DNA of 42,039 nucleotides from a virus (IMGVR_UViG_2740892429_000003); one strand, 5' to 3'. Positions 1,828 through 36,025 are shown, counted from the stretch's first letter. Made by a program: numbers and translations. The notes: generated by a model from the letters alone, not told the origin.

Positions 1828-2400
1828 TCACAGCTCTGGCCATACGATATCCGGGGCTGTATTTATATCAATCCGACTCACTAATACCCGGTATTTTTTC
1901 CAGGAAGATAGCATCGATACTTCCTCATCAGTTGCCATTTCAAAATTAACAGCATCCTGCAGAATTGTTATGTTATCAGTCGCTTCCTGGATTAATCTTG
2001 CCTTTTTCTCTTCCGCCTCCCGGATCCGGAACAGTTTTTCTCCTTCTGCATCTTTCACCCAGGCTGTGCCGTTCCACTTCTGAAACTCCCCATCCGGCGA
2101 CAACCAGGTGACGTTTTCCGGTAACGGACCGAGTTCAGAAATAAATAATGCGTCCCCTGATGCCACGTCATAAACCGTTTTACCCCGATGATCTTCAACG
2201 AGATGCCACGATGACTCATCACTGTTGAAAACAGCCACGAAGCCAGCCGGAATATCTGGCGGTGCAATATAGGTACTGTTTGCAGGCAGACCTGTATGAG
2301 GTGGAATATATGCATCACCTTCACCAATAAATTCATTAGTTCCGGACAGCAGATTATAAATTTTTATGGTCCGTGATTGTTCACTCATTCTGAATGCCAT
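1828..2400 (-). CDS. Tail fiber assembly protein (Tfa, Mu U / P2 G-like)
   Basis: 190 aa; immediately downstream of tail fiber gene with overlapping stop/start; typical Tfa N-terminal sequence ([35 protein letters not shown]). Confidence 0.8.
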
Positions 2401-3515
2401 TATGCAAGCCTCACAATATAGTTAAATGCGATGTTTTTGACGGTGTTTTCCGCGTTACCAGCAGCGTTAACGGTGATGGTGTGTCCATGTGAACCAATCG
2501 CAACAGAGTGCGTATGTGCACCAATAGCGACAGTATGTGTATGCGCCCCAGCACTTGCTGCAGTACCTGATACTGAGTGGGTATGCGCGCCAGCAGAATT
2601 CGTTGCACCTAAGTGAGTTTGAGCAGAGTTCGACGAAGCTACTCTACCGGAGCTAACGTTAGCATTATCCCCCTGAGATATCGGATGCGTATGTGCACCT
2701 GCTGAAGCTGCTGTTCCGCTAACGCTATGGGTATGCGCACCAGTGTTATTCGTAGATTTAGTTCCATAATCAAACGATGATGTGTTTTTTGTCCCTAAAT
2801 CTGTATTTGAAGCACTGGCGCTGTGGGTGTGCGATTTAATGCCGTCTTGTTCCTGGCTAAGAACATCACGTCCACTTGCAGGCTTACCTTTGATTGTCCA
2901 GCCACGCATATCAGGGATCACGCCTGACGGATAAGCGGCTGCAAGTTTCGGGTATGCAGACTTATCAAAAGTCTGTCCCTGCATCAGAGCATAACCAGAT
3001 GGAACTGTATCTGATGGCCACGGGATCGGGGCACCTACAGGAAAGGTCGAATTATTTTCCAAACCAAGATATTTAAGGACATCAGCAACAGAGCTTTTTG
3101 CCAAAATATCTCGCCCAACCTGTGTCAGGTCAGCCAAATTAGCGGTATCTTGATTGGTAAAATACGGTAATTTGTTTTCGGATGCTGAAAGATTAGCAAG
3201 TGCGGTAAGTATGGCATTAATTCTCTGATAGTTCTTATCTAATGCAGACGACATTTTTGCGATAAAGCCGGCCTGATCGCCATCGTCCTGTACATCCAGT
3301 CCACTTTCATTTGCTGTATATTGTGCCATTGCAGATGCAATAAAGCTGGCCTGCCGAATAACCTTATTGACTTGCGCACTGGATGCTTTCCCTGCTGTAA
3401 ATCCGGATAAAAGCGCAGGCAACGCTTCCCATTCCTCCTGCGACATAACATTGGCATTTTTACCCGTTGCGAATGCTTTAAAGTCATTTTTTGCCATCAG
3501 AGTAATACTCCCCAT
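2400..3515 (-). CDS. Tail fiber protein with C-terminal His-X-His repeat tip
   Basis: 371 aa; C-terminus with repeated [19 protein letters not shown] units and terminal [12 protein letters not shown]; position after baseplate genes. Confidence 0.75.
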
Positions 3516-4177
3516 GCCCCTACATCAAAACCACTGATAAATTCGTTATCCATATCAAAACCAAAAAATTTTGAGCCTTCCGATGGGGTTTCCACCGAAG
3601 GTGTTTCAATGCCCCCCGCCCATACCCCGGCGGCTTTTACTGTGAGATACCCCTGTTTAATTGCCGCAATTAACTCACGCGATACATCTGAAATATCAGT
3701 ATCAGGAAAGACCCAGACCGATATCGTCATGTCCTGGTTATCGACTATCTGCATTCGCAGCCCGGATCCTGCTGTTGCCGCGTCAAGAATTGCCGGAAGC
3801 GAATCATTCCGTCCGTCCCAGTTATTAATCGCAATCTTCGCTTTAAGAATGACACGATAAGTTTCATCGCGGAGATACATGTATCCAGAATCAGGATCAT
3901 ATGGCCCCTGCCATACACCCTGATCATATCCAAGCCCGTCGGTATCCCAGCTGAAATAGACACCTGAGATAAGCTGGCTGACAACACGGCTACGTCCGAT
4001 CCACAATCCCAGAATGTCAAGTTGCACACCAACCGCAGAGTCAATATCAAATGCAGTAATCAGCCCTCTGGTGGCCGCCGCAACATCAATAAGCGGCCGG
4101 GTCATCAGATCAACATGTGCAAGAAATTTAGGTTTGGTGGCGTGGTAGTTCGTGATTAGTTCGGTGTATTTGCTCAT
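3497..4177 (-). CDS. Baseplate/tail protein (Mu gp48 / P2 gpI-like)
   Basis: 226 aa; gene order between baseplate J-like and tail fiber. Confidence 0.55.
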
Positions 4178-5373: not shown

Positions 5374-5726
5374 TACGCCTCCGATGTAACAGTCGTTATT
5401 CCATAGAGAGTGTCGATTTCAGTGGAAAACCTGACACGTCGGGTCGTGGTATCCACCGTAGTATTGAAAGAGAGGATTGATTTAACGCCCCGCGTTTCGA
5501 GGATGCGCTTACGGATCGCCAGGTTGTAGGTTTCCGGCTTCTGCTTACCGAGTACGGACTGGATCCACGGAGTCCCCTCGGTGGTGTCGAGAAACCATTG
5601 CCCATACCACAATTCGAATCGCGTTTTTACCGCCTGCGCCACGGCCTCCGGTAAGTTAATCAGCCAGGTGTCATCACCGCTGCCAAAGGTGTAATCGCCA
5701 TCGGCGTCTTCACGTCTGTATCGCAT
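5373..5726 (-). CDS. Baseplate wedge protein (gpW/gp25-like)
   Basis: 117 aa; translationally coupled between spike-like and J-like genes. Confidence 0.5.
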   Translation of the reverse strand: MRYRREDADGDYTFGSGDDTWLINLPEAVAQAVKTRFELWYGQWFLDTTEGTPWIQSVLGKQKPETYNLAIRKRILETRGVKSILSFNTTVDTTTRRVRFSTEIDTLYGITTVTSEA

Positions 5727-6478
5727 CAGTTTACTCCGTCGGTATTGCTTCCACCGCGCTGAACACCACCATGAGTGTGCGTATCATCGATTGGCTTGCC
5801 GTTAGCCTTCACGCTACCCAAAAACTCAACAGCACCAGTGATTTTTGAAGCCACACCAGAAACAACAGCCCCCACCATGCCACCCATCCAGGTTAACAGT
5901 CCATGAATGGTTACTTTCTCAGAAAAATCAGCCAGAGGGGCAACCACATCAAGACCACCCGGAGCGACAATTTTAATTTTCCTGGTATCAGGATTAAGCT
6001 CAAAATAGGTGCTGCCGTCATCACTACGCAACTGTGTGGCACTGGTATTAATACCGCTAATCTTCCTTGCCTGCGACTGGGGACCGACAATACAAAACGC
6101 ATCCGATAAATCATGCATTCTGTCATCGACCGGCTCCTGTATCCCGCCGCTCTGCCACCAGAAATCAATACAACGATCGGCAAAAATCACCAAACACTCA
6201 TCACCGGCTTTTACCGGAAAAGTCAACGTACATCCTCCGCCGCGCGGGAATACCACTGGCACATCCACCAGCAATGGGTAATTTTGGGTAATGCGGTTGC
6301 CGTCATTATCCTTTTCAACCGAACGGATAGCAGGCTGCACAACTGCCGTCACCGCATCAGGATCGAATGACTGAATAATGCCAGGCAAGGCGACACGGAT
6401 CTGGTTCTTTGTTGTTTCCCGTTCAGATTTGAATGTTTCGGCAAGGTCGCCGCTGCGGGTCTGGTCAGATACGGCCAT
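5726..6478 (-). CDS. Baseplate spike / assembly protein V-like
   Basis: 250 aa; position and size consistent with Mu gp45 / P2 gpV. Confidence 0.5.
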   Translation of the reverse strand: MAVSDQTRSGDLAETFKSERETTKNQIRVALPGIIQSFDPDAVTAVVQPAIRSVEKDNDGNRITQNYPLLVDVPVVFPRGGGCTLTFPVKAGDECLVIFADRCIDFWWQSGGIQEPVDDRMHDLSDAFCIVGPQSQARKISGINTSATQLRSDDGSTYFELNPDTRKIKIVAPGGLDVVAPLADFSEKVTIHGLLTWMGGMVGAVVSGVASKITGAVEFLGSVKANGKPIDDTHTHGGVQRGGSNTDGVN

Positions 6479-6496
6479 TTAGTAGGCTCCAGAAAG

Positions 6497-6520
6497 CAAA
6501 AAACCCGCCGAAGCGGGTTT
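6497..6520 (-). terminator. Rho-independent terminator (minus strand)
   Basis: Minus-strand stem ACCCGC-ttcg-GCGGGT followed by TTTTTTGCTTT; sits directly downstream of the inserted cassette 6536..7784. Confidence 0.6.
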
Positions 6521-6535
6521 GAAAGGATGTATGGA

Positions 6536-7108
6536 TTATTTAGGTTTCTTCCTACCATAAACAAACACTGTAGTTAATCCTACGAGATCTAAAGTAGCAA
6601 GAGTACCTGCGAACCAAGTGTTACCGCGATTAGCAAAAAACGCAGCCATTATAAGCACTACCATTGCAATGCAAAATCCCATCCATTGCCCACGTTTGTC
6701 GCGTGAAACCGCACCAAGTAATGCATCACTTTGCGTCTTATGCCTATGCTCTTGCTCTTTTTCGGTTAGCCTGAAAATTCTCTCAGCGCCGCCGGGTAAT
6801 ATTTGATTATATTGTAAGAGCATAGCAGGAGGTGGGAGTGGTCCCTGAAAAGACTCCTGCTGAAACATGGCAATAACCTTCGGGTTCTTAGAAACTCTCT
6901 CAAGAAGTTCAGGTGTTAACTTCGATTTTAGCTCAGGATCAAGGTTGGCAACTGCAGACAGCTTTTCCACTACTTCCTGAGACTCATCATATTCCGAGGA
7001 ATCAATATCTTCGTCGATACCATCCGAATCAGGAACGGCTTTTTGCGACGCTTTGTTTTCCTGATGCTTTTTGAGAACGGCCGCCTGCTTGCGGGGTTTT
7101 GAACTCAT
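6536..7108 (-). CDS. Cargo gene: inner-membrane protein with acidic N-terminal region and two C-terminal TM helices
   Basis: 190 aa; D/E/S-rich N-terminal half, C-terminal GFCIAMVVLIMAAFFA and LATLDLVGLTTVFVYG; lower GC than tail genes; start may lie further downstream. Confidence 0.45.
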   Translation of the reverse strand: MSSKPRKQAAVLKKHQENKASQKAVPDSDGIDEDIDSSEYDESQEVVEKLSAVANLDPELKSKLTPELLERVSKNPKVIAMFQQESFQGPLPPPAMLLQYNQILPGGAERIFRLTEKEQEHRHKTQSDALLGAVSRDKRGQWMGFCIAMVVLIMAAFFANRGNTWFAGTLATLDLVGLTTVFVYGRKKPK

Positions 7109-7268
7109 ACCTGATAACTCTGTTCATGTCACTTGCAATGACTTTAACATCACTTCTTATTGCCCGACAATCAGATCCAGAAGCAGCATATTGCCAGTAA
7201 TCTGTAGTCGGCATAATGTCCATAACACTACCGGCAGCGGCTAAGTAACGATTAACGATTTTCCTCAT
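7029..7268 (-). CDS. Cargo gene: small hypothetical protein
   Basis: 79 aa from ATG preceded by GGGAGGGG SD (MRKIVNRYLAAAG...); 3' end overlaps next ORF by about 80 nt, so real extent is uncertain. Confidence 0.35.
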   Translation of the reverse strand: MRKIVNRYLAAAGSVMDIMPTTDYWQYAASGSDCRAIRSDVKVIASDMNRVIRYEFKTPQAGGRSQKASGKQSVAKSRS

Positions 7269-7433
7269 ATCCCCTCCCATAGTGAACATCAGTGGAGCGC
7301 AGAGTTTACCTTTAAGGTAAAGTATAGACAACTACTGTGTACAGATGGTTCAAAAAATGCGTTAACCAGTATTATTTTGTTAAAATTAGCGCAATTGGCA
7401 ACAGTTCATCCATAATATTATGGGCGTCAAAAA

Positions 7434-7784
7434 TCATCGCCCAGCCACTTTTTTACAAGGGAATGATCCGATGATTTTCGGCGCATCCATGCTGTTTTGC
7501 AGAAGCTGGACACTCAGGAGTCGCGTTTCGGTGCCCGGTCGATGGATATACTCGAACCCATAATTGTGGCCATCTTTGGCAGGCATCAGCCCCATTTTGA
7601 TCTGCATGCCTGTACCGTCTTTACCCAACATTTTTACTTTTTGGGACGTTACTGTTTCGCCATTGATTTTAAATAATGAGTCAGGGATCGCATCCATACG
7701 AAAGTTACCGCATTGCATCGTTATGGTGTTTGCACTTACACCAACAGACACTAACGCCAGCAATGAAAATATCCATCGTTTCAT
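7434..7784 (-). CDS. Cargo gene: secreted/periplasmic protein with cleavable signal peptide
   Basis: 116 aa from MKRWIFSLLALVSVGVSA-NT (signal peptide, AXA-type site); two Cys in mature part; SD GAGAGG upstream; starts 3 nt after the stop of tail gene 7787..8851. Confidence 0.55.
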   Translation of the reverse strand: MKRWIFSLLALVSVGVSANTITMQCGNFRMDAIPDSLFKINGETVTSQKVKMLGKDGTGMQIKMGLMPAKDGHNYGFEYIHRPGTETRLLSVQLLQNSMDAPKIIGSFPCKKVAGR

Positions 7785-7786
7785 TT

Positions 7787-8851
7787 CTATAATCCTCTCT
7801 GCAAAGCAGTGCTGGATGGCATATCCTGCGCACCGCGCGCTTCGCACATCATATCCATGTACCACGCCTGGCCCCTTGTGTCACCAGTGTACATAATCCC
7901 GCGCACAATATAAACGCCATCCGTTGCGATGCTGGCAGGCTGCGATGTGGTGCCGCTGAGCGTGATATTTCCGTCTGTGTTCTGGTCGGTGATCTGCCCA
8001 CCGGCCATCGCGATATCGTTGTTCGACAACGCGGTACGATACACGGAAGCCTGATCCAGCTGAATGAGCCCGTTAACCCGGATGTTCGGATTAATAAGCG
8101 CACGGACGTTTACGCCGTTACCGATGGTCTGCTGAGGCATACCAATAAGCCCCGTGGCACTGTTGAGCACAATCGCTTCGTGAACATATTCGTTATTCGC
8201 CACCATCTGGCGCTGACCGTCCACGAATTGCCATGTTGCGCCACATTGCCCGGCTACGTTATCCATTAGATGCCGCGTCATGCCAAAGAGCACCCGTCCC
8301 CGGGGGAATACAGTAGCAGGCATTTCAGGCGTCAGGCCTTCGGTCGCGCCTTTGGCTTCGAAGTCTTTCATCAGCGCACGGTTCACATCAGCGACCGTGT
8401 AACCGGCAGCCAGCGTCTGTGAGGTTATACTGGTGGCAAAAGCCAGATCAGTATCTGCTGCCTGAATCAGGACGTAGGAATCAACCGGACTGTCTTTTCC
8501 TGTGACCGAGTAGCGAATTTCACCGCTGAAAATTAGTCCGTAGTTGCGGCCATCACTCTGGCCCACGTCCGCCGCGTCAACTTCCCGCACAGTCCCGACG
8601 TCACTTGCCGACACCTCCGGCGCGATACCGTCGTAACCCGCAATCAGACGCACTTTCGAAAACTCCTGCCCGGTGATTCGGTTCACAGTATCTGCCGAGA
8701 GGTTATAAATTTTGATAGTCCCTACCCGGGACGCGCTGCTGATGTTGAACCAGTCGATCGTAAAGGTGACTTTAAAATCACTTAGCTCAATTCCCTGACC
8801 GTTCTCGTCCACAAGCTGCAGCTCGAAATGTCTCATCCAGTTCTGTGACAT
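7787..8851 (-). CDS. Tail protein, gpD-like (late control D / baseplate hub family)
   Basis: 354 aa; position downstream of tape measure and small tail proteins; inference from synteny. Confidence 0.5.
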   Translation of the reverse strand: MSQNWMRHFELQLVDENGQGIELSDFKVTFTIDWFNISSASRVGTIKIYNLSADTVNRITGQEFSKVRLIAGYDGIAPEVSASDVGTVREVDAADVGQSDGRNYGLIFSGEIRYSVTGKDSPVDSYVLIQAADTDLAFATSITSQTLAAGYTVADVNRALMKDFEAKGATEGLTPEMPATVFPRGRVLFGMTRHLMDNVAGQCGATWQFVDGQRQMVANNEYVHEAIVLNSATGLIGMPQQTIGNGVNVRALINPNIRVNGLIQLDQASVYRTALSNNDIAMAGGQITDQNTDGNITLSGTTSQPASIATDGVYIVRGIMYTGDTRGQAWYMDMMCEARGAQDMPSSTALQRGL

Positions 8852-8853
8852 GC

Positions 8854-9156
8854 TTACTCCGTTGATACCAGTAAATGGCTGCGACCGCCCAGGTCAGTTT
8901 TTGTGGGGTAATCCTGTGTGTTGTCATCACAGACCACCACCAGCTTAAAACCAAGCCCCATACAGGCGTACTGCGCCAGCAGGTCGGCACCAGTGACGAG
9001 AGGAATACCGGAGATTACCGGCTCCCCTCTGTCGTTCTGCAGGTCCATAATCCAGTACAGATCGCGCCATATGATGCTAATCCGCCAGGTAACACCACCT
9101 AAGACGATGCTGAACTGCTGGTTGTCCGCTGTCAGCGGAATTTCCTGAATTGTCAT
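8854..9156 (-). CDS. Tail-associated protein
   Basis: 100 aa; translationally coupled in tail cluster. Confidence 0.4.
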   Translation of the reverse strand: MTIQEIPLTADNQQFSIVLGGVTWRISIIWRDLYWIMDLQNDRGEPVISGIPLVTGADLLAQYACMGLGFKLVVVCDDNTQDYPTKTDLGGRSHLLVSTE

Positions 9157-9743
9157 TAGCCGCCTCCCAGTAATGACGCCACGTTACCCGTAATGCTTTT
9201 CAGCAGTGAAGTATCTGGAGGCTTTGTGGTTTTGTTGCCGCTGTTCTGTACCGCCGACGTGCTGGCCCCTTCCTTCATGTTGGTTTTATCCGCGACGGTA
9301 ATCTGCTGTGTCCGGGAGATAAGGACCTCCCTCAGGGTAAGGACGGCGGACAGGACGTTTTCGGTTGTCTTGTCCGTCGTCACTTCCAGCGCCCGGATCA
9401 ACATGTTGCTGTACAGCCGTTTACCGGTTACCACATCGAAGGGGATACGGCTTTCCTGCAGATCCAGTAGCTCCTGATACGTCTGCTGAGGACTCAGGCC
9501 GAGCAGGCTGGTAGCCGTCAGGTTACTGGCAAAATCCAGCAATGTGCCGCCACCGGCGAAACCAACCTCCATCACCACTTCTGACGGTTTTTTATAGGCA
9601 TGATCAGCGACAGCAGCCCCGACCTCTACCGGATGCTCGGTTATTTCAAGCATATCTGTATGCTTCTCTGAAATAACAACACTGGGAACAATCATTCCTA
9701 TTTTTCTGCTCTGCTGATGAAAAAGTGTAGAGAGAATATCCAC
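9156..9743 (-). CDS. Tail-associated protein
   Basis: 195 aa; directly downstream of tape measure gene. Confidence 0.4.
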   Translation of the reverse strand: MDILSTLFHQQSRKIGMIVPSVVISEKHTDMLEITEHPVEVGAAVADHAYKKPSEVVMEVGFAGGGTLLDFASNLTATSLLGLSPQQTYQELLDLQESRIPFDVVTGKRLYSNMLIRALEVTTDKTTENVLSAVLTLREVLISRTQQITVADKTNMKEGASTSAVQNSGNKTTKPPDTSLLKSITGNVASLLGGG

Positions 9744-11752
9744 TAACCCACCCTCACCTGATTACTTCGCATGACCTGAGCATTTGCAGACTGTTGCCGA
9801 CGTGCAACCTCATTACCGACAGCGTGCGGATCTCCGCCACCGTAAATGTGGTAGGTATTTTGCTGGTTAACCTCTGTCACTTTGCCACTAATTCCCGCCA
9901 CGGCAGCCTTATTAATCAGCTCTCGAGAATAGATATTTCTTCCATTTTCATGCTGGATAATGCTGCTCATCAATGCTGACATGGTTTTCGGATCGCTCAT
10001 ATTCAGGGCAGCCCGGGGATCCACTCCCAGTCGTTGCGATACAGCCCTGATATACGCAGTTGTGTTGTTATTATCAGAGGCAGGTGCCCAGGTAGAGATA
10101 ATTTTTTCCACACTGTTTATTCCTCGCCCGGCGTACAACATTAACTGACGAGCAAGAGCCCGTAATCCATCAAAGGCAGTTTCAAATCTGGCAAATCGCC
10201 CGCCCGGGTGTTCAAGAGAAGCCCCCGCCTGACCAGCAAAATTAAGGTTTCCCGGATTGTTATTCCGCTCTCCTCGTTTCGTAGCCTGTGTATGTTGTTC
10301 CGGCTCATCATCACCAAACCAGCCGCGTACCGTCCGGCCCACACTGCGGGGATCGAATCCCCAGTGCTCTTTAATCCAGTCGGCAGTACTGTTAGCGCTG
10401 TCTGTAACCATCGGCATCGCTGACGGATTTTCGCTGCCCTGATTAAGTATCTGTTTGCCGATGCTGACGGCATCAGCCCAGCGTCCATCTTTGATAGCGT
10501 TGAGCAGGTCGGCGATCATGTTCAGCATTTTGCTGAATTCGCCCATCTGGTCGATGAAGTTGCTGAAATCCCACTTCAGGGACCATGATTTGGGGTCAAT
10601 ATTGAGTAGTTTCGCCAGCGCTTTCGCCAGATCGTTAACGGTCGTTTTAAGGTCACGAACCATCTTCAGCGCGGCATCGACCTCCGGTTTCCACTTGCCC
10701 CAGTCAATCAGGCTGTCGCCGCCTTCCTTCCAGGTCTGATAGTCCTCCCACAGGAGGGCAATCCCCGCCGCCAGCGCGGTAATGAGGCCAACCGGCGACA
10801 TCCAGAACGTACTGTTCAGAATGCGCAGCGCAATCGTCAGTGCGCCAAACAGCGAGATCAACTCCCGCGTTTGCTTATCCAGCGATTGCCACCAGGTGAT
10901 AAGGCCTGATGTCCCCTCAATCAGTCTGAAGAACAGCCGCCCGATAATATCCCCGAGCGCCAGAATGCCTTTTATGGCTTTCGTCAGGGTCTGCTCGATA
11001 CGAGGGAAGTTGTCCAGGATATGGCGGCGCAGGGTGTCCAGCGAACCTGCAAGCCCACCCGCAAGATTAGAGCCGATTTTGTCACGGGCCATGCCTGCCA
11101 TCGCGCTAAACTCACGCAGAGAGGTCATAAATTTGTTGGAGCTTCTGGCCGCCTCGTCAGCATTGAAGCCGATAGCTTTCGCCATTGCGCTGTACTGCCC
11201 GGAGAAGCCACCTACACCCCGGCGCATCGCCATAAGGGTATTTTCGTCAATGCCCAGCATCTGCGCATACTGGTTAGCCCGGTAATACGGCATGCTGCTG
11301 AGTTTCTGTCCAACGCCCGTAAAGATAGCGGCCATGTCACGCATGTTACCGCTGGCATCACGGGTCTGTACGCCCAGGCGATTCAGAAATCCCTCCGCCC
11401 CGGGATTATTACGAATAAACCGGGAGAGTTTTTCCAGAGAAGATCGCGCAGCGTCCACGCTGCCGCCAACCTGCGAAACCGCATAGCCAATAGACTGAAT
11501 TCCCTGGACTGTCGCGCCGGTGCGCTGTGACGCCCAGTAAAGATTATCCAGACCAGAGGCGATCCTAGCCGTGAAGGCCACCACGGACAGCGCCGCTCCT
11601 TCGACGGCCAGCCCCATTTTGATGACATTTGCAGTTGTACCGGCGAGGACAGAACCGAATTTTTTCGCTCCTGCATCATCCACACTGAAGCCAAGCGAGA
11701 CGAGGAAATCTTTAATAGTCTCGGCGTTCATTATCCTCTCTCCATTTCTCAA
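9743..11752 (-). CDS. Tail tape measure protein
   Basis: 669 aa; alanine/glycine-rich helical protein downstream of sheath/tube/chaperone; start may be the internal MNAETIK (11731). Confidence 0.8.
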   Translation of the reverse strand: MRNGERIMNAETIKDFLVSLGFSVDDAGAKKFGSVLAGTTANVIKMGLAVEGAALSVVAFTARIASGLDNLYWASQRTGATVQGIQSIGYAVSQVGGSVDAARSSLEKLSRFIRNNPGAEGFLNRLGVQTRDASGNMRDMAAIFTGVGQKLSSMPYYRANQYAQMLGIDENTLMAMRRGVGGFSGQYSAMAKAIGFNADEAARSSNKFMTSLREFSAMAGMARDKIGSNLAGGLAGSLDTLRRHILDNFPRIEQTLTKAIKGILALGDIIGRLFFRLIEGTSGLITWWQSLDKQTRELISLFGALTIALRILNSTFWMSPVGLITALAAGIALLWEDYQTWKEGGDSLIDWGKWKPEVDAALKMVRDLKTTVNDLAKALAKLLNIDPKSWSLKWDFSNFIDQMGEFSKMLNMIADLLNAIKDGRWADAVSIGKQILNQGSENPSAMPMVTDSANSTADWIKEHWGFDPRSVGRTVRGWFGDDEPEQHTQATKRGERNNNPGNLNFAGQAGASLEHPGGRFARFETAFDGLRALARQLMLYAGRGINSVEKIISTWAPASDNNNTTAYIRAVSQRLGVDPRAALNMSDPKTMSALMSSIIQHENGRNIYSRELINKAAVAGISGKVTEVNQQNTYHIYGGGDPHAVGNEVARRQQSANAQVMRSNQVRVG

Positions 11753-32370: not shown

Positions 32371-33873
32371 GTGTCAACTTTGAGAATCGGTATGGAAATC
32401 CAAGAGTTTGTAAGTCACTATAAAAACCACCCTGTTCTATTCATTGGAACAGGATTTAGCCTACGGTATCTAGAAAACTCATTTAGCTGGGATGGTCTTC
32501 TTTTGAGTGTCGCAATGGAACTAACCGGTAATGCTGAGTTTTACTACGATTTGAAAGCTGAAAGCCTAGAAGGTGACGACTATCGATATGATATCTTAGC
32601 TACAAAACTTGAAGATATTTTTAATAAAAAGCTGGCAGAAGATCGTAACGGTAAGTTCAAAGACATCAATGATGTTTTCTATGAGCACATGAAAAAAGGG
32701 AAAAAACTAAGTCGATTCAAAATTTATTTAACTTCAATACTTAAAGACCTAAAGATAAAAGAGTCAATGATGGAGGAAATAAACAGCTTAATAAAAACAA
32801 GAAAAAACATAGGCTCCATCATTACAACAAACTACGACCAACTCGTAGAGAACATCTTCGAATTTAACCCACTGATTGGTAACAACATTCTTTTAAGTAA
32901 CCCATACGGTTCAGTTTACAAAATACATGGCTGTGTTAGTGATCCTAACAACATAATTATCACAGGTGAAGACTACGCAAACTTCGACAATAAATATGAG
33001 TTAATTCGCGCTCAATTACTCTCAATATTCATACACAACCCTATCATATTTATAGGGTATAGTATTAGCGATAAAAACATTAAGTACTTATTAAAAACCA
33101 TATTCTCATACGTTGACTTAAATACCGAACTTGCAAAAAGGATAAAAGATAATTTTCTTTTGGTTGAATACGAAAAAGACAGCATGTCAACTGAAATTAC
33201 GGAGCATGACATAGATATAGAAGGCATGTCTATCATAAGAATAAACAAAATAAAAACAAACAATTACAAAGCTGTATATGATGCCATCTCGGGACTAGTT
33301 TTGCCAGTATCCGCAATGGACATAAGAAAGGTTCAAAAAGTTTGGAGTACCATCAAAAGTGGTGGTGAGATAAAGGTTAAAATTACAGAAAATTTAGATG
33401 AACTTCGCAATGATGAAATGGTCATTGCTGTTGGTTCAGAAAGAACCGTACAATATGTTTATCAAACAAAATCTGAAATGATACAGAACTATTTTAAAAT
33501 AGTTGACGAAGCAAACTCTCAGCTTATCGCATTACTGAATAAGCAAACTATAGCTAATAGCGAACACTTTCCAATATACGCTTTTAGTTCTATCTGCCCT
33601 GAACTAGAAAATACCGAGACATACAGAAAACGGCAGCTAGATAAAATCATTGGTAACCTTTCTCGAATTAAAACATGTAAGAGTGATGCTGTGTCTATTG
33701 ATGAAATACTAAAAGAAACGAAAGAGTATAAAGTTGCTAACACGATTATGTATTGCGTACTAAACGATACTATTTCATTGAAACAACTACGAGATTATTT
33801 AACAAAACCAGGGCATAAAATTGATACCCAATACAGGCGACTTTTATGCTTGTATGATTATTTATCATATTAA
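32371..33873 (+). CDS. SIR2-family (SIR2_2 / ThsA-like NADase motif) protein with uncharacterised C-terminal domain; candidate single-gene defence cargo
   Basis: 500 aa; GTG start with GAGG SD; motifs GTGFS (26-30), TTNYD (152-156), KIHG (184-187), FIGYS (227-231); very low GC; flanked by hairpins 32295..32315 and 33899..33921. Confidence 0.8.
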   Translation: MSTLRIGMEIQEFVSHYKNHPVLFIGTGFSLRYLENSFSWDGLLLSVAMELTGNAEFYYDLKAESLEGDDYRYDILATKLEDIFNKKLAEDRNGKFKDINDVFYEHMKKGKKLSRFKIYLTSILKDLKIKESMMEEINSLIKTRKNIGSIITTNYDQLVENIFEFNPLIGNNILLSNPYGSVYKIHGCVSDPNNIIITGEDYANFDNKYELIRAQLLSIFIHNPIIFIGYSISDKNIKYLLKTIFSYVDLNTELAKRIKDNFLLVEYEKDSMSTEITEHDIDIEGMSIIRINKIKTNNYKAVYDAISGLVLPVSAMDIRKVQKVWSTIKSGGEIKVKITENLDELRNDEMVIAVGSERTVQYVYQTKSEMIQNYFKIVDEANSQLIALLNKQTIANSEHFPIYAFSSICPELENTETYRKRQLDKIIGNLSRIKTCKSDAVSIDEILKETKEYKVANTIMYCVLNDTISLKQLRDYLTKPGHKIDTQYRRLLCLYDYLSY

Positions 33874-33898
33874 GCATTCTTAACTTCGGTTATAAAAA

Positions 33899-33921
33899 GC
33901 CGCCATTTTGGCGGCTTTTTA
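33899..33921 (+). terminator. Rho-independent terminator after SIR2-like gene
   Basis: GCCGCC-attttg-GGCGGC followed by TTTTTA; preceded by an A-run (potentially bidirectional). Confidence 0.65.
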
Positions 33922-33949
33922 TTTATTAAATCCAACGGGTCCTTACTTG

Positions 33950-36025
33950 ATGCAAAAACTTTGGTTAGACCTCGAAACTTTCAGCGAAATCCCAATAAAA
34001 AACGGCACCCATGTCTATGCAGAAGGAGTCGAAATCATGTTATTCGCATGGGCAATCGACGAAGACCCCGTCAGCGTACACGATTTAACCACAGACTATA
34101 ACTTGCCGACACGACTACTGACAGCTCTCAGCGATGAGAGCGTACTAATATATGCACACAACAGCCATTTCGATCGCACCATGTTGCGCCATGCATTGCT
34201 GCACACTCCCCAATGCGTTGTTGCAGGTAGTGCCAAACGCTGGCGAGACACAATGGTGCAGGCGCTGGCGCACGGTCTCCCGGGGTCTCTGGGGGAACTC
34301 TGCGAAATACTCGGCGTCCCGCAAGACAAAGCGAAGGACAAAGAAGGTAAAGCGCTGATCCAGCTGTTCTGTAAGCCCCGCCCGAAAAACAGCAAACTGC
34401 GCCGTGCCACCAGCAAAACCCACCCGGAAGAATGGCGGCGCTTTGTTGCTTACGCCGGACTGGATATCGAGGCAATGCGCGAAGTCTATAAACGTCTGCC
34501 GAAGTGGAATTATCAGGGGACAGAGCTGGCGCTCTGGCATCGTGATCAGCAGATCAACGACCGGGGCGTCTGCATGGACATGCAACTCGCGCGCGCTGCG
34601 ATCGAAGCGGTAGACCAGGAGCAAAAGCGCCTGGCAAAGCGTACACAGGAAATGACTGATGGCGAAGTGCAGGCAGCCACACAACGGGACGCGTTGATTA
34701 AGCACATTGTTGAATCCTACAGTGTGGAGCTACCAGACATGCAACGCAGTACTCTGGAACGTCGTATTGCCGACCCCGATTTACCATCTGCCGTGAAAGA
34801 ACTGCTGGCTATCCGCCTGCAAGCCAGTACTACCAGCACCAGTAAATACAAGGCACTGATGAAAGGCGTAAGCCACGACGGGCGCTTACGCGGTACGCTA
34901 CAGTTCTGCGGGGCGTCACGTACCGGTCGTTGGGCCGGACGGCTATTCCAGCCCCAGAACCTTCCCCGCCCTTCACTAAAACAGGAACAAATAGACGAAG
35001 GCATCGAAGCACTGAAAGCCGGATGTGCAGACCTGCTGTTTGACAATATCATGGAACTAACCAGTTCAGCGTTACGTGGCTGCATTATCGCGCCAACAGG
35101 CAAAAAACTGGTGGTAAGTGACTTGTCAAACATTGAAGGCCGTATGCTGGCATGGCTGGCGGGAGAAGAATGGAAACTGAATGCATTCAGAGAGTACGAC
35201 GCCGGAACGGGTCCGGACTTATATAAACTGGCGTATGCAAAAGCTTTCGATATTGCACCAGATGATGTTGATAAACACATGCGTCAGATCGGTAAAGTCA
35301 TGGAACTCGGTCTGGGTTATGGAGGTGGTGTATCGGCTTTCATCACTTTTGCTCTGGTTTACGGTCTCGATCTCGACGAGCTGGCGAACGCCGCACTGCC
35401 AAACATTCCCCGCGATGTTATCCGCGAGGCGAAAAGCTGGTACGACGAATCGGTTAAACGTAAGTCGACCTTTGGCCTTTCCGAGCGTGTATTCATCGCA
35501 TGTGACTCGCTCAAGCGCCTGTGGCGCAGGGCGCACCCGGCGACCTGCGATTTCTGGTACGAGCTGGAGCGCACTGTCCGCACAGCAATCGCCACACCGC
35601 AAAAAACATTGTATTGCGGTTATCTTAAAATCCGCCGCGATGGCGCGTGGCTGCGCATACAGCTACCATCCGGACGCGCTGTATGCTACCCGTCTCCGGT
35701 TATCGAACAAGGGAATATCACCTACATGGGTGTTAACTCTTATTCGCGTAAATGGCAACGACTCAAAACCTACGGCGGAAAGCTGGTGGAGAACGTCACC
35801 CAGGCGGCCGCCCGCGACGTTCTGGCCGGAAATATGCCGCTTATCGAAGATGCCGGTTACAGCATTGTGCTGACGGTACACGACGAGGTGATCACCGAAT
35901 CACCTGACACAGAAGATTTCAACGATAAAGAGCTTTCCGCGCTTCTCTCCAATAACCCCGAATGGGCGCCCGATATCCCACTGAACGCTGGCGGTTTTGA
36001 GGCGTACCACTACCGTAAGGATTAA
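33950..36025 (+). CDS. DNA polymerase A family with N-terminal 3'-5' exonuclease domain
   Basis: Exo I motif LWLDLETFS; pol motifs [28 protein letters not shown]; start placed at ATG 33950 because the longer ORF (33908) would include the upstream terminator hairpin. Confidence 0.85.

What the first reader, a model, noticed from the sequence alone, without database searches (positions are those of the whole stretch)
6490..7790. Three-gene periplasmic/membrane cargo cassette inside the baseplate gene cluster
Between the gpD-like tail gene and the spike-like gene lies a lower-GC block that Mu-type tail clusters do not contain. It encodes a signal-peptide protein (7434..7784, cleavage after VSA, two Cys), a small protein (7029..7268, strong SD) and an inner-membrane protein with an acidic N-terminal half and two C-terminal TM helices (6536..7108). 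It ends with its own terminator (6497..6520). A periplasmic protein plus an inner-membrane protein resembles superinfection-exclusion pairs such as T4 Imm/Sp, which block incoming phage DNA or tail lysozymes. None of the three has a motif I can assign.
Basis: partly seen in the sequence, partly recalled or inferred. Interest (0 to 1): 0.6.

Follow-up and report, generated by a model that had tools for sequence, protein, structure and literature searches.

The report
Accessory gene slot in prophage tail operon
Between two baseplate genes of an E. coli prophage lies an "extra DNA" slot holding a conserved secreted protein and a swappable two-gene unit that looks like a membrane toxin with its small antidote, probably a prophage weapon against other phages rather than a tail part.

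Summary
All three ORFs, the lower G+C and the terminator are real, but they are not one three-gene cassette. The window is a complete SEN34-like temperate myophage prophage. In related virulent phages (Rosemountvirus birk) and in Pam3, the hub and spike genes abut. In the temperate enterobacterial lineage a slot of 321-2355 nt always lies between them.

The slot has three layers:
- **Secreted protein (7434-7784).** A two-cysteine beta-barrel protein starting 2 nt after the hub stop codon. It is conserved across the lineage whatever follows it.
- **Variable cargo.** At least 21 architectures occur, including PD-lambda-1/SNIPE, a YafO toxin pair and antirepressors. Here the cargo is a small ORF (7029-7268, unannotated in RefSeq) overlapping a DUF2335 membrane protein (6536-7108).
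- **Terminator (6496-6520).** It belongs to the backbone: 72 of 76 loci have one regardless of cargo.

The small-ORF/DUF2335 pair is a conserved mobile module in many temperate phages, found after cI, beside int, or at prophage ends. The partner domain is stand-alone, fused to DUF2335 (Xenorhabdus), or fused to a Panacea antitoxin domain in distant bacteria. The best reading is a toxin-antitoxin or abortive-infection type moron. Function is inferred, not shown. Interest is moderate.

The parts
7787..8851 (-). Baseplate hub gene; upstream boundary of the accessory slot
   Evidence: Weak Pfam E217_GP41 hit (6e-5) and NCBIfam orf58_phage_fam. tblastn finds the hub proteins of SEN34, Mulock, Rosemountvirus and Pam3.
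7434..7784 (-). Lineage-conserved secreted two-Cys protein (116 aa; mature about 97 aa). The ATG lies 2 nt after the hub stop codon.
   Evidence: phrog_3443, E 4e-49. 268 homologous clusters, with the signal peptide variable but always present and C25/C110 invariant. AlphaFold2 pLDDT 85, a 7-8-strand up-down beta-barrel. Found right after the hub in SEN34, YP3, Mulock and 606R2. Absent in yong1.
7269..7433 (-). AT-rich leader of the cargo operon (GC 0.37). Promoter-like TTGTCT (7326-7331), a 17-nt spacer, then TAAACT (7303-7308). Perfect palindrome TTTACCTT-A-AAGGTAAA (7305-7321). Shine-Dalgarno GGGAGGGG (7271-7278).
   Evidence: The 89 nt upstream of the small-ORF ATG are 84/89 identical to the diverged copy in L184, where the DUF2335 coding sequence is only 80% identical. 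The consensus scan found only a different 9/12 site at 7374-7401, and the total number of promoter-like sites did not exceed chance. Promoter function is inferred.
7029..7268 (-). Small partner gene (79 aa; conserved part is residues 1-52). It overlaps the DUF2335 start by 80 nt. Proposed antitoxin/adaptor.
   Evidence: phrog_26284, E 2e-12. Homologous 64-aa genes lie upstream of DUF2335 in Citrobacter, Proteus, phage RAH1 and MD8. 24 of 24 viral loci carry it. Fused to DUF2335 in Xenorhabdus, and forms the C-terminus of Panacea proteins in three distant loci. Not annotated in RefSeq.
6536..7108 (-). DUF2335 inner-membrane protein (190 aa). It has a basic then acidic variable N-terminus, a conserved cytoplasmic domain (about residues 87-142) and a C-terminal helical hairpin. 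Proposed membrane toxin/effector.
   Evidence: Pfam PF10097, E 1.8e-18. phrog_3996, 'moron ... membrane protein'. AlphaFold2 shows a long helix 107-160 running into TM1 and a second helix 164-186.
6496..6520 (-). Intrinsic terminator immediately upstream of the spike ribosome-binding site. A conserved backbone element that closes the slot.
   Evidence: The same hairpin plus T-run is present, with loop variation and some compensatory stem changes, in 72 of 76 related loci whatever the cargo. It is also present in 606R2, MINF_1D, P4, SEN34, Mulock, yong1 and phi15.1.
5726..6478 (-). Central spike gene; downstream boundary of the slot
   Evidence: Pfam PF18352 N-terminal spike domain, E 9e-45, plus the Apex motif. 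RefSeq annotates it as a 'membrane-puncturing spike protein'.

Best explanation
The region is the accessory ('moron') slot of a SEN34-like temperate myophage. It lies between the baseplate hub and spike genes, which abut in the core version of this tail module. The slot holds two independent units.

Unit 1 is a lineage-conserved, Sec-exported, disulfide-bonded small beta-barrel protein. It is read off the late tail operon straight after the hub gene. It is not part of the virion and most plausibly acts in the periplasm.

Unit 2 is a horizontally exchanged bicistronic operon with its own conserved leader. It encodes a small cytoplasmic protein and, overlapping it, a DUF2335 protein anchored in the inner membrane by a C-terminal helical hairpin.

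I propose that unit 2 works like a type II toxin-antitoxin or abortive-infection module. The DUF2335 protein would be a membrane-acting effector, causing depolarisation or permeabilisation by oligomerised hairpins. The small protein would bind its cytoplasmic domain and keep it inactive, perhaps also repressing the operon through the palindrome in the promoter. Infection by another phage, or loss of the prophage, would release the effector.

The conserved terminator in front of the spike gene stops slot transcription in the lysogen. The prophage's Q antiterminator would let late transcripts read through it.

What is shown: gene reality; the independence of the two units; the conservation, fusions and contexts of the module; and the slot's diversity.

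What is inferred: export, topology, promoter activity, toxicity, neutralisation and the defence role.
For: Slot:
- Hub and spike abut in Rosemountvirus birk and Pam3.
- 76 related IMG/VR loci always have 321-2355 nt between the secreted-protein gene and the spike, in at least 21 architectures.
- Cargo families include PD-lambda-1/SNIPE (E 4e-84), a YafO toxin, and Bro-N/P22 antirepressors.

Recent exchange:
- The 913-bp cargo is at least 99.7% identical in 16 of 5426 E. coli genomes, whereas the whole 5700-8900 query, flanks included, ranges from 91.6 to 100% identity in those genomes.
- The identical cargo sits beside secreted-protein variants that are only 66-69% identical.
- Breakpoints lie at about 7441-7447 and about 6509-6533.

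Module:
- The partner gene is directly upstream in 24 of 24 viral loci and in Enterobacterales and Pseudomonas genomes.
- The two genes usually overlap.
- Contexts are typical lysogeny or moron positions: after cI in Proteus, beside gtrAB in Citrobacter, beside int in MD8, after the lysin in Streptococcus Javan phages, and inside the tail operon of Klebsiella phage RAH1.

Link to toxin-antitoxin systems:
- The partner domain forms the C-terminal 60 aa of proteins with a SocA_Panacea antitoxin domain (E 4e-19, 3e-21 and 6e-20), encoded directly upstream of DUF2335 in Tatlockia and two cyanobacterial loci.
- Published work shows that Panacea antitoxins often neutralise through appended domains that also exist stand-alone. 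It also shows that several PanT toxins are membrane depolarisers with a charged N-terminus and C-terminal TM helices (PMC8832971; PMC10440598).
- Fusion of the partner motif to DUF2335 in about 33 Xenorhabdus species indicates physical interaction.

Regulation:
- The leader is 94% conserved against 80% for the coding sequence.
- A palindrome lies in the promoter spacer, and palindromes occur at the promoters of other copies.

Late read-through:
- The prophage encodes an antiterminator Q family protein.
Against: - There are no experimental data, and the literature searches found none.
- No hit in PADLOC 2.0, NCBIfam or the PDB.
- The window's small protein itself has no Panacea domain. The Panacea link rests on three strong and two weak distant loci out of about 80.
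- The DUF2335 cytoplasmic domain is well conserved (GPLPPP...EKEQxHRH...RGQWMG). That is more than a simple pore-forming peptide needs and could indicate another activity or a specific target.
- A toxin fused to its antidote across a whole genus (Xenorhabdus) fits a sensor-effector or plain membrane protein as well as it fits a toxin-antitoxin system.
- The promoter-like hexamers are weak (8/12), and the consensus scan is not above chance.
- The AlphaFold2 model of DUF2335 is only moderate (pLDDT 76, pTM 0.43), and fold search returned only generic helices.
Confidence: 0.5

Rival explanations
1. The small-ORF/DUF2335 module is a non-toxic superinfection-exclusion device. It sits in the inner membrane and blocks or attacks incoming phage DNA or tail proteins at the injection site, in the manner of HK97 gp15, P22 SieA or SNIPE. 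The small protein would be a cofactor rather than an antidote.
For: - It is an inner-membrane protein encoded by a moron inside a tail operon, like HK97 gp15 (PMC3594210).
- The same slot in a sister prophage carries SNIPE, a membrane-bound injection-site nuclease (PMC13190303).
- The variable acidic N-terminal half of DUF2335 could be a rapidly evolving specificity region.
- The position after cI in Proteus implies expression in the lysogen.
Against: - There is no sequence relation to gp15/YebO, SieA, SieB or Imm.
- The bicistronic overlapping layout, the Panacea-fused partners and the promoter palindromes fit a toxin-antitoxin logic better.
- The bulk of the protein is predicted to be cytoplasmic, with almost nothing exposed to the periplasm.
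Confidence: 0.2
2. The secreted protein, the small protein and the membrane protein form one three-gene exclusion cassette, in which a periplasmic and an inner-membrane component cooperate as T4 Sp and Imm do.
For: - All three genes are real, adjacent, co-oriented and lower in G+C than the tail genes.
- The tape measure protein carries an endolysin-like C-terminal domain (E 2e-13 to 7q47), which a periplasmic inhibitor could target.
Against: - The secreted protein is found with many other cargos, and the DUF2335 pair is found without it in most contexts.
- The recombination breakpoint falls between them, at about 7441-7447.
- The secreted-protein gene is coupled to the hub gene, whereas the pair has its own leader.
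- There are no Imm, Sp or MliC profile hits even at E up to 10.
Confidence: 0.07
3. The cargo serves the phage's own lytic cycle or the host's physiology, not defence. Examples would be membrane remodelling, lysis timing, a stress response or plain post-segregational addiction. The secreted protein could be an assembly or structural factor of the tail.
For: - The function of DUF2335 is unknown.
- The fused form is vertically conserved across Xenorhabdus next to a degraded cI/Cro remnant, which suggests a host-beneficial role independent of an active phage.
- The secreted-protein gene is embedded in the late operon and conserved in most relatives: 287 E. coli genomes against 353 with a match to the hub-to-spike query 5700-8900.
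Against: - A cleavable signal peptide and an invariant Cys pair argue against a cytoplasmically assembled tail component.
- The secreted protein is absent from yong1 (hub 77% identical) and from every distant phage with this baseplate, including Pam3, whose genome record names each baseplate gene with nothing between hub and spike.
- The pair sits at classic lysogenic-conversion positions, among defence and toxin-antitoxin cargo.
Confidence: 0.15

Closest known systems
HK97 gp15 moron (superinfection exclusion protein encoded inside the tail operon)
   Same: Extra DNA between two tail genes of a temperate phage, with deviant G+C and transcription signals for prophage expression. It encodes an inner-membrane protein and belongs to a phage with Q-dependent late transcription (PMC3594210; window data).
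   Different: There is no sequence similarity: no YebO or other Pfam hit. Here there are two genes with an overlapping small partner. The slot is a multi-cargo hotspot with a resident secreted-protein gene and a backbone terminator. The proposed mechanism is toxin-like rather than an entry block.
PanAT toxin-antitoxin systems with membrane-depolarising PanT toxins (Panacea/DUF4065 antitoxins)
   Same: A bicistronic, often overlapping operon with the antidote gene first. The toxin has a charged N-terminal part and C-terminal TM helices. In three distant DUF2335 loci the upstream protein really carries a Panacea domain plus the partner domain. Appended neutralising domains are known to exist stand-alone as well (PMC10440598).
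   Different: The window's small protein has no Panacea domain. DUF2335 is not named among the PanT clusters in the text and stored supplements I could search. Toxicity is untested.
   Same: The 116-aa protein is a small exported two-Cys beta-barrel. The phage's tape measure protein has a muralytic (endolysin-like) domain that such a protein could inhibit.
P22 SieB/Esc and lambda RexAB (prophage membrane-based abortive systems; from my own knowledge)
   Same: Prophage-expressed two-component systems in which a membrane protein aborts infection and a second product restrains or triggers it. In Proteus the DUF2335 pair occupies the position right after cI, as rexAB does in lambda.
   Different: No homology. 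The sizes and topologies differ.
Defence hotspots of temperate phages and satellites (P2/P4 type; from my own knowledge) and SNIPE/PD-lambda-1
   Same: A fixed position in a conserved phage backbone where unrelated small systems replace each other. One sister prophage carries PD-lambda-1/SNIPE in this very slot.
   Different: The position lies inside the baseplate operon, between hub and spike, and is closed by a conserved terminator. Most cargo families here have no known function.

Membership tests
Pfam DUF2335 (PF10097) | Profile match above the curated gathering score | tested here: met
   66.6 bits against a cut-off of 25, E 1.8e-18, residues 92-141.
Moron (Hendrix/Juhala sense) | Extra DNA between genes that are adjacent in related phages | tested here: met
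   Hub and spike abut in Rosemountvirus birk and Pam3. The content differs among close relatives.
Moron (Hendrix/Juhala sense) | Base composition different from the neighbouring genes | tested here: met
   GC3 is 0.36-0.39 in the cargo and 0.59-0.63 in the tail genes.
Moron (Hendrix/Juhala sense) | Own promoter and own terminator allowing expression from the repressed prophage | tested here: inconclusive
   The leader is highly conserved and carries TTGTCT-17-TAAACT and a palindrome, but the hexamers match only 8/12 and the scan is not above chance. The terminator exists but belongs to the backbone. Expression was not measurable here.
Type II toxin-antitoxin module | Two adjacent, co-oriented, usually overlapping genes conserved as a pair across unrelated contexts | tested here: met
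   80-nt overlap in the window. The pair is present in 24 of 24 viral loci, and an abutting upstream ORF is present in nearly all of 79 genome loci.
Type II toxin-antitoxin module | Toxicity of one product and neutralisation by direct binding of the other | not testable with these tools
   Only indirect evidence: natural fusions of the partner motif to DUF2335.
PanAT (Panacea antitoxin) systems | The antitoxin carries the SocA_Panacea (PF13274) domain | tested here: not met
   The window's 79-aa protein has no Pfam hit even at E up to 10. The domain is present only in distant relatives' upstream proteins (L243, L248, L249).
T4 Imm / Sp superinfection exclusion | Sequence membership in the Imm or Sp families | tested here: not met
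   No Pfam, PHROG-function or PADLOC match for any of the three proteins to these families.
T4 Imm / Sp superinfection exclusion | The periplasmic and membrane components act together | tested here: not met
   The two genes are inherited independently.
MliC/PliC lysozyme inhibitors (for the 116-aa protein) | Profile match or clear fold match, with an N-to-C disulfide-closed 8-strand barrel | tested here: inconclusive
Known anti-phage defence systems (PADLOC-DB 2.0) | Match to any model | tested here: not met
   No hits for the three window proteins at E up to 0.1.
Structural tail protein (for the 116-aa protein) | Present in all phages sharing this baseplate and lacking export signals | tested here: not met
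   Absent from yong1, Rosemountvirus, PY100 and Pam3. A signal peptide is conserved in all 38 aligned homologues.

The most novel reading that the evidence does not exclude
DUF2335 and its small partner may form a previously unrecognised, very widespread family of membrane-acting toxin-antitoxin or abortive-infection defence modules. It occurs in Proteobacteria, Bacteroidota and Cyanobacteria, and in Firmicutes prophages. Its neutralising domain is modular: stand-alone in phages, fused to Panacea sensors in some bacteria, and fused to the effector itself in Xenorhabdus. The hub-spike junction of SEN34-like prophages would then be a dedicated defence hotspot that also carries SNIPE. The resident secreted barrel protein would be a second, envelope-level exclusion factor, possibly an inhibitor of the tape measure protein's muralytic domain.
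Probability: 0.35. Interest if true: 0.65.

Novelty: new member of a known kind. Interest (0 to 1): 0.45.

Why it matters
- **A testable function for DUF2335.** It would give a first hypothesis for a Pfam domain of unknown function that is common in temperate phages of both Gram-negative and Gram-positive bacteria.
- **A missed partner gene.** The partner gene is absent from the RefSeq annotation and from the annotation of at least two phage records examined.
- **An addition to the Panacea network.** DUF2335 would become a new membrane-toxin partner, and the small protein a new stand-alone neutralising domain.
- **A hotspot for discovery.** About 5-6% of complete E. coli genomes carry this prophage lineage. 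The position between hub and spike is a bounded, easily recognisable slot where more than 30 mostly unknown small gene families alternate with SNIPE and toxin-antitoxin genes. That makes it a convenient place to look for new defence or exclusion genes.
- **Limits.** If the module proves non-toxic and has no phage phenotype, the finding reduces to an ordinary moron.

Tried and rejected
- **Word-indexed search with the 79-aa protein.** It found nothing. The exhaustive search found only 10 stand-alone relatives plus three long repetitive proteins (P0168, P0175, P0177) whose matches are low-complexity coincidences. Such small genes seem often not to be called: the window's copy and two phage copies are unannotated.
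- **Fold searches.**
  - The secreted protein gave generic small barrels against the PDB and nothing useful against BFVD.
  - The AFDB library was unavailable.
- **Literature.** The only 'DUF2335' mentions with a function ('DUF2335 phospholipase' in two T6SS papers) refer to T6SS effector toxin domains. They look like a mislabel of another DUF, probably DUF2235. I judged them irrelevant. PF10097 gave nothing. The Brenes & Laub 2025 paper on E. coli prophage defence is not held.
- **Pfam, NCBIfam and PDB sequence searches.** They gave no hit for the secreted and small proteins, even at E up to 10.
- **Rfam on 6300-8000.** Only a sub-threshold rsmX hit on the terminator.
- **5'UTR structure.** The leader shows no unusual RNA structure, z = +1.1.
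- **Consensus promoter scan.** Its best site (7374-7401) lies in a stretch that is deleted in the diverged copy L184, so I did not rely on it.
- **Pattern-based locus search.** The 36-sequence alignment A5 was too diverse for it, so A3 was used instead.
- **Is E. coli PanT (WP_000019185.1) a DUF2335 protein?** I could not obtain its sequence. The supplement lists it without any CDD domain, which argues against it.
Full report
**1. Observation**

On the minus strand, three ORFs lie between the baseplate hub gene (7787-8851) and the spike gene (5726-6478):
- 7434-7784, 116 aa;
- 7029-7268, 79 aa;
- 6536-7108, 190 aa.

The first has a classical signal-peptide-like N-terminus and two cysteines. 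The second is preceded by GGGAGGGG. The third has a basic then strongly acidic N-terminal half, and a C-terminal pair of hydrophobic helices flanked by positive charges. The block is lower in G+C than the tail genes: GC3 is 0.36-0.39 for the last two genes against 0.59-0.63 for the hub, plug and Dit genes. A terminator-like hairpin lies at 6501-6520.

None of the ORFs is a chance ORF:
- The 116-aa protein matches phrog_3443 (E 4e-49) and has 268 homologous clusters.
- The 79-aa protein matches phrog_26284 (E 2e-12).
- The 190-aa protein is a Pfam DUF2335 member (E 1.8e-18) and matches phrog_3996.

RefSeq annotates the first and third but not the 79-aa gene.

**2. What the window is**

The window is 100% identical to a region of the E. 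coli 21KM1392 chromosome. It spans a complete prophage between yfhL and yfhH. The prophage has an integrase, a LexA-like repressor, an antiterminator Q family gene, a lambda-type holin, and a contractile tail.

The tail module runs in this order:
- tape measure protein;
- Dit-like protein;
- Pam3_gp18-type plug;
- hub;
- the block under study;
- spike;
- sheath-initiator-like protein;
- Baseplate_J;
- DUF2612.

The nearest named phages are Salmonella phage SEN34 (Brunovirus), Escherichia phage vB_EcoM-606R2, Yersinia phage YP3 and Klebsiella phage Mulock. In total, 353 of 5426 complete E. coli genomes match the hub-to-spike query 5700-8900.

**3. The block is extra DNA, and the position is a hotspot**

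In more distant phages with the same baseplate type, the hub and spike genes abut with nothing between them. This holds for Rosemountvirus birk and for Pam3. In the temperate enterobacterial lineage there is always something in between. Across 76 IMG/VR loci that have the secreted-protein gene and a downstream spike gene, the intervening stretch is 321-2355 nt. It falls into at least 21 architectures built from 35 ORF families.

Representatives of these families include:
- PD-lambda-1 (PADLOC E 4e-84), renamed SNIPE, a membrane-bound nuclease that cuts DNA during injection (PMC13190303);
- a YafO-type toxin with an upstream partner;
- Bro-N/P22-type antirepressors;
- a ClpX zinc-finger protein;
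- a phage zinc-binding domain protein;
- a PycTM-like membrane protein;
- many unknowns.

Homology between the window and relatives with other cargo ends at about 7441-7447 and resumes at about 6509-6533.

**4. The terminator belongs to the backbone**

Just upstream of the spike ribosome-binding site, 72 of 76 loci carry a perfect hairpin plus a T-run, whatever their cargo. The loops vary and some stems show compensatory changes, such as CCCGCC/GGCGGG, CCCTC/GAGGG, CCTCGC/GCGAGG and CCAGC/GCTGG.

Because the prophage encodes a Q-type antiterminator, I infer two things. The hairpin stops transcripts that start inside the slot in the lysogen, and late transcription reads through it.

**5. The secreted protein**

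Its ATG lies 2 nt after the hub stop codon, so it is read as part of the late operon. No promoter-like site was found upstream of it.

Distribution:
- It sits right after the hub gene in relatives that carry quite different cargo: 95-96% identical in E. coli MINF_1D and P4, 61% in phage 606R2, and also present in SEN34, YP3 and Mulock.
- It persists at 30% identity in Klebsiella prophages whose hub is only 51% identical.
- Its DNA is detectable in 287 E. coli genomes.
- It is missing from Hafnia phage yong1 (hub 77% identical), where an unrelated non-secreted ORF takes its place, and from all distant phages with this baseplate.

In 38 aligned homologues the signal peptide varies but is always present. 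Both Cys residues are invariant, and the mature part is highly conserved.

The tape measure protein's last 195 residues are homologous to an endolysin (7q47, E 2e-13). A periplasmic inhibitor of an incoming tail's muralytic domain, working like T4 Sp, is therefore conceivable but unsupported beyond this. I conclude that it is a lineage-specific accessory exported protein and not a virion part. Its function is open, and an envelope-level exclusion role is the best guess (about 0.35).

**6. The two-gene module**

The small ORF and DUF2335 form a unit that is independent of the secreted protein.

*Contexts.* DUF2335 genes with a homologous 64-aa upstream gene occur:
- next to gtrAB in Citrobacter koseri;
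- immediately after the cI-type repressor, on the same strand, in Proteus mirabilis prophages;
- between the major tail and tape-measure chaperone genes of Klebsiella phage RAH1, where the small ORF is unannotated;
- in a Uetakevirus;
- beside the integrase of Pseudomonas phage MD8;
- after the lysin at the end of Streptococcus Javan prophages.

*Pairing.* A profile of the small protein hits directly upstream of DUF2335 in 24 of 24 representative IMG/VR loci that have upstream sequence. Only 13 of 80 viral DUF2335 loci lie in a hub-spike slot. The small ORF typically overlaps the DUF2335 start, by 80 nt in the window.

*Partner domain.* It has a bipartite signature, GS[VI][LM]D[IL]xP..DY followed by SD[WF]xx[VI]GxD.

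*Forms of the partner domain across genomes*:
- a separate gene in Enterobacterales and Pseudomonas;
- fused to the N-terminus of DUF2335 in about 33 Xenorhabdus species and one MAG;
- the C-terminal 60 residues of a 242-247-aa upstream protein in Tatlockia and two cyanobacterial loci, where the N-terminal domain is SocA_Panacea (E 4e-19, 3e-21, 6e-20), with two further weak cases.

Nearly every one of 79 genome loci has a co-oriented ORF abutting or overlapping the DUF2335 start.

**7. Why a toxin-antitoxin-like reading**

Published work bears on this in four ways:
- Panacea is a hyperpromiscuous antitoxin domain.
- Several validated PanT toxins are membrane depolarisers with a charged N-terminal region and C-terminal TM helices (PMC8832971).
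- In multidomain PanA proteins, neutralisation is done by appended domains that also exist as stand-alone antitoxins.
- Fused toxin-antitoxin proteins are known (PMC10440598).

The DUF2335 module fits this pattern. Its antidote-like partner domain is stand-alone, Panacea-linked, or effector-fused. Its gene layout is small-gene-first and overlapping. Its product is a membrane hairpin protein.

The AlphaFold2 model of DUF2335 (pLDDT 76) shows a long helix, 107-160, that runs from the conserved cytoplasmic domain into the first TM segment. A second helix contains a conserved Asp. This suits oligomerisation in the membrane, but the fold search was uninformative.

**8. Regulation and mobility**

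A diverged copy of the same cargo occupies the same slot in a metagenomic contig, L184. There, the DUF2335 coding sequence is 80% identical at the nucleotide level, the secreted-protein gene 73% and the spike 80%. By contrast, the 89 nt upstream of the small-ORF ATG are 84/89 identical.

This leader contains:
- TTGTCT, a 17-nt spacer, then TAAACT;
- a perfect 8+1+8 palindrome (7305-7321) across the spacer and the -10 element;
- the strong Shine-Dalgarno sequence.

Other copies of the module also bring about 100-170 nt of non-coding leader with promoter-like hexamers. They often have an upstream terminator and a palindrome at the promoter, including a recurring TTACC/GGTAA half-site. This suggests an autonomous, repressible transcription unit, but promoter activity is inferred.

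The 913-bp cargo is at least 99.7% identical in all 16 E. coli genomes that carry it, while the whole 5700-8900 query, flanks included, ranges from 91.6 to 100% identity in those genomes. The identical cargo also sits beside secreted-protein variants that are only 66-69% identical. This indicates recent exchange between diverged prophages.

**9. Mechanism and rivals**

- **Best explanation (about 0.5).** The slot holds two independent accessory units, and the DUF2335 pair is a toxin-antitoxin or abortive-infection type moron. A membrane-acting effector is held in check by the small protein and released on phage attack or element loss.
- **Main rival (about 0.2).** A non-toxic entry-blocking exclusion protein in the manner of HK97 gp15, SieA or SNIPE.
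- **Non-defence roles, or a structural or assembly role for the secreted protein (about 0.15).**
The comparative data contradict it.

The structural statements carry much higher confidence, about 0.85-0.9. These are: real genes, an extra-DNA slot, independence of the units, a conserved pair with fusions, and a backbone terminator.

**10. Comparison and novelty**

The architecture is a textbook moron or hotspot; HK97 gp15 is the classic tail-operon case. New here:
- DUF2335 and its mostly unannotated partner emerge as a coherent, widespread two-gene family with a link to the Panacea antitoxin world.
- The hub-spike junction is recognised as a bounded cargo hotspot in a common E. coli prophage lineage.

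I found no paper that assigns a function to DUF2335. I rate it a new member of a known kind, of moderate interest.

**11. Dead ends**

These are listed under Tried and rejected. They include uninformative fold searches, no PADLOC, NCBIfam or PDB hits, a misleading 'DUF2335 phospholipase' label in two T6SS papers, spurious repetitive hits in the exhaustive search, and no Rfam family in the intergenic region.

Noticed in passing
window about 32392-33873 (+ strand): A SIR2 family protein gene sits in a sharply low-G+C island (GC 0.31-0.34 at 32501-34000) between the DNA polymerase and DUF2815 genes of the replication module. It is probably a second, independent defence-type moron in this prophage.
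   Followed up: no
window about 2400-3044 and the gap 3045-3496: RefSeq marks the tail fibre gene as a pseudogene missing its N-terminus. About 450 nt of unannotated sequence separate it from the DUF2612 gene. The prophage may be unable to make infectious particles.
   Followed up: no
window about 1272-1817: A serine acetyltransferase gene on the opposite strand lies just beyond the tail fibre assembly gene, in a low-G+C end region of the prophage (GC 0.32-0.39). It is a possible surface-modification or lysogenic-conversion gene.
   Followed up: no
window 9743-10330 (- strand): The C-terminal 195 aa of the tape measure protein are homologous to a solved endolysin (7q47, E 2e-13) and to a 1295-aa phage protein Gp29 (9vvp, E 2e-20). 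Pfam sees no muralytic domain there.
   Followed up: partly
L172 (IMG/VR 3300047656_000063), slot downstream of position 4018: A sister prophage carries a 409-aa PD-lambda-1/SNIPE homologue in the same hub-spike slot. It has an N-terminal TM segment, a coiled coil, and T5orf172/MUG113 domains (PADLOC E 4e-84).
   Followed up: partly
L104 and 7 similar loci (families F6-F7); L105 (F17-F18): The slot in other relatives holds a 192-aa protein followed by a YafO-type toxin (Pfam E 2e-16), and another two-gene pair of unknown families. Both look like further toxin-antitoxin-like cargo.
   Followed up: partly
L004:2346-2711 (E. coli P4) and L102: A second, unrelated signal-peptide protein of 121 aa follows the resident secreted protein in some prophages. 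It has the same design, with one Cys near the mature N-terminus and one near the C-terminus.
   Followed up: no
L011-L013 and L196-L226 (Xenorhabdus spp.): The fused partner-DUF2335 gene was found in about 33 Xenorhabdus species. In the three X. szentirmaii-related loci examined it lies next to a cI/Cro pair and a NADAR gene, with no obvious intact prophage. It looks like a long-retained, domesticated remnant.
   Followed up: partly
L017:3284-3481 (Klebsiella phage RAH1) and L018:3137-3487 (phage BUCT711): The small partner gene upstream of DUF2335 is unannotated in these deposited phage genomes too, as it is in the E. coli RefSeq record.
   Followed up: yes
window 7410-7423 (- strand): A second perfect palindrome, CCATAATATTATGG, lies just after the stop codon of the secreted-protein gene. 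It falls in the part of the intergenic region that is absent from the diverged copy L184.
   Followed up: no
L033 and L051 (IMG/VR): DUF2335 modules only 47-49% identical to the window's also sit in a hub/secreted-protein-spike slot. The same kind of cargo has therefore entered this position more than once, or has been there a long time.
   Followed up: partly
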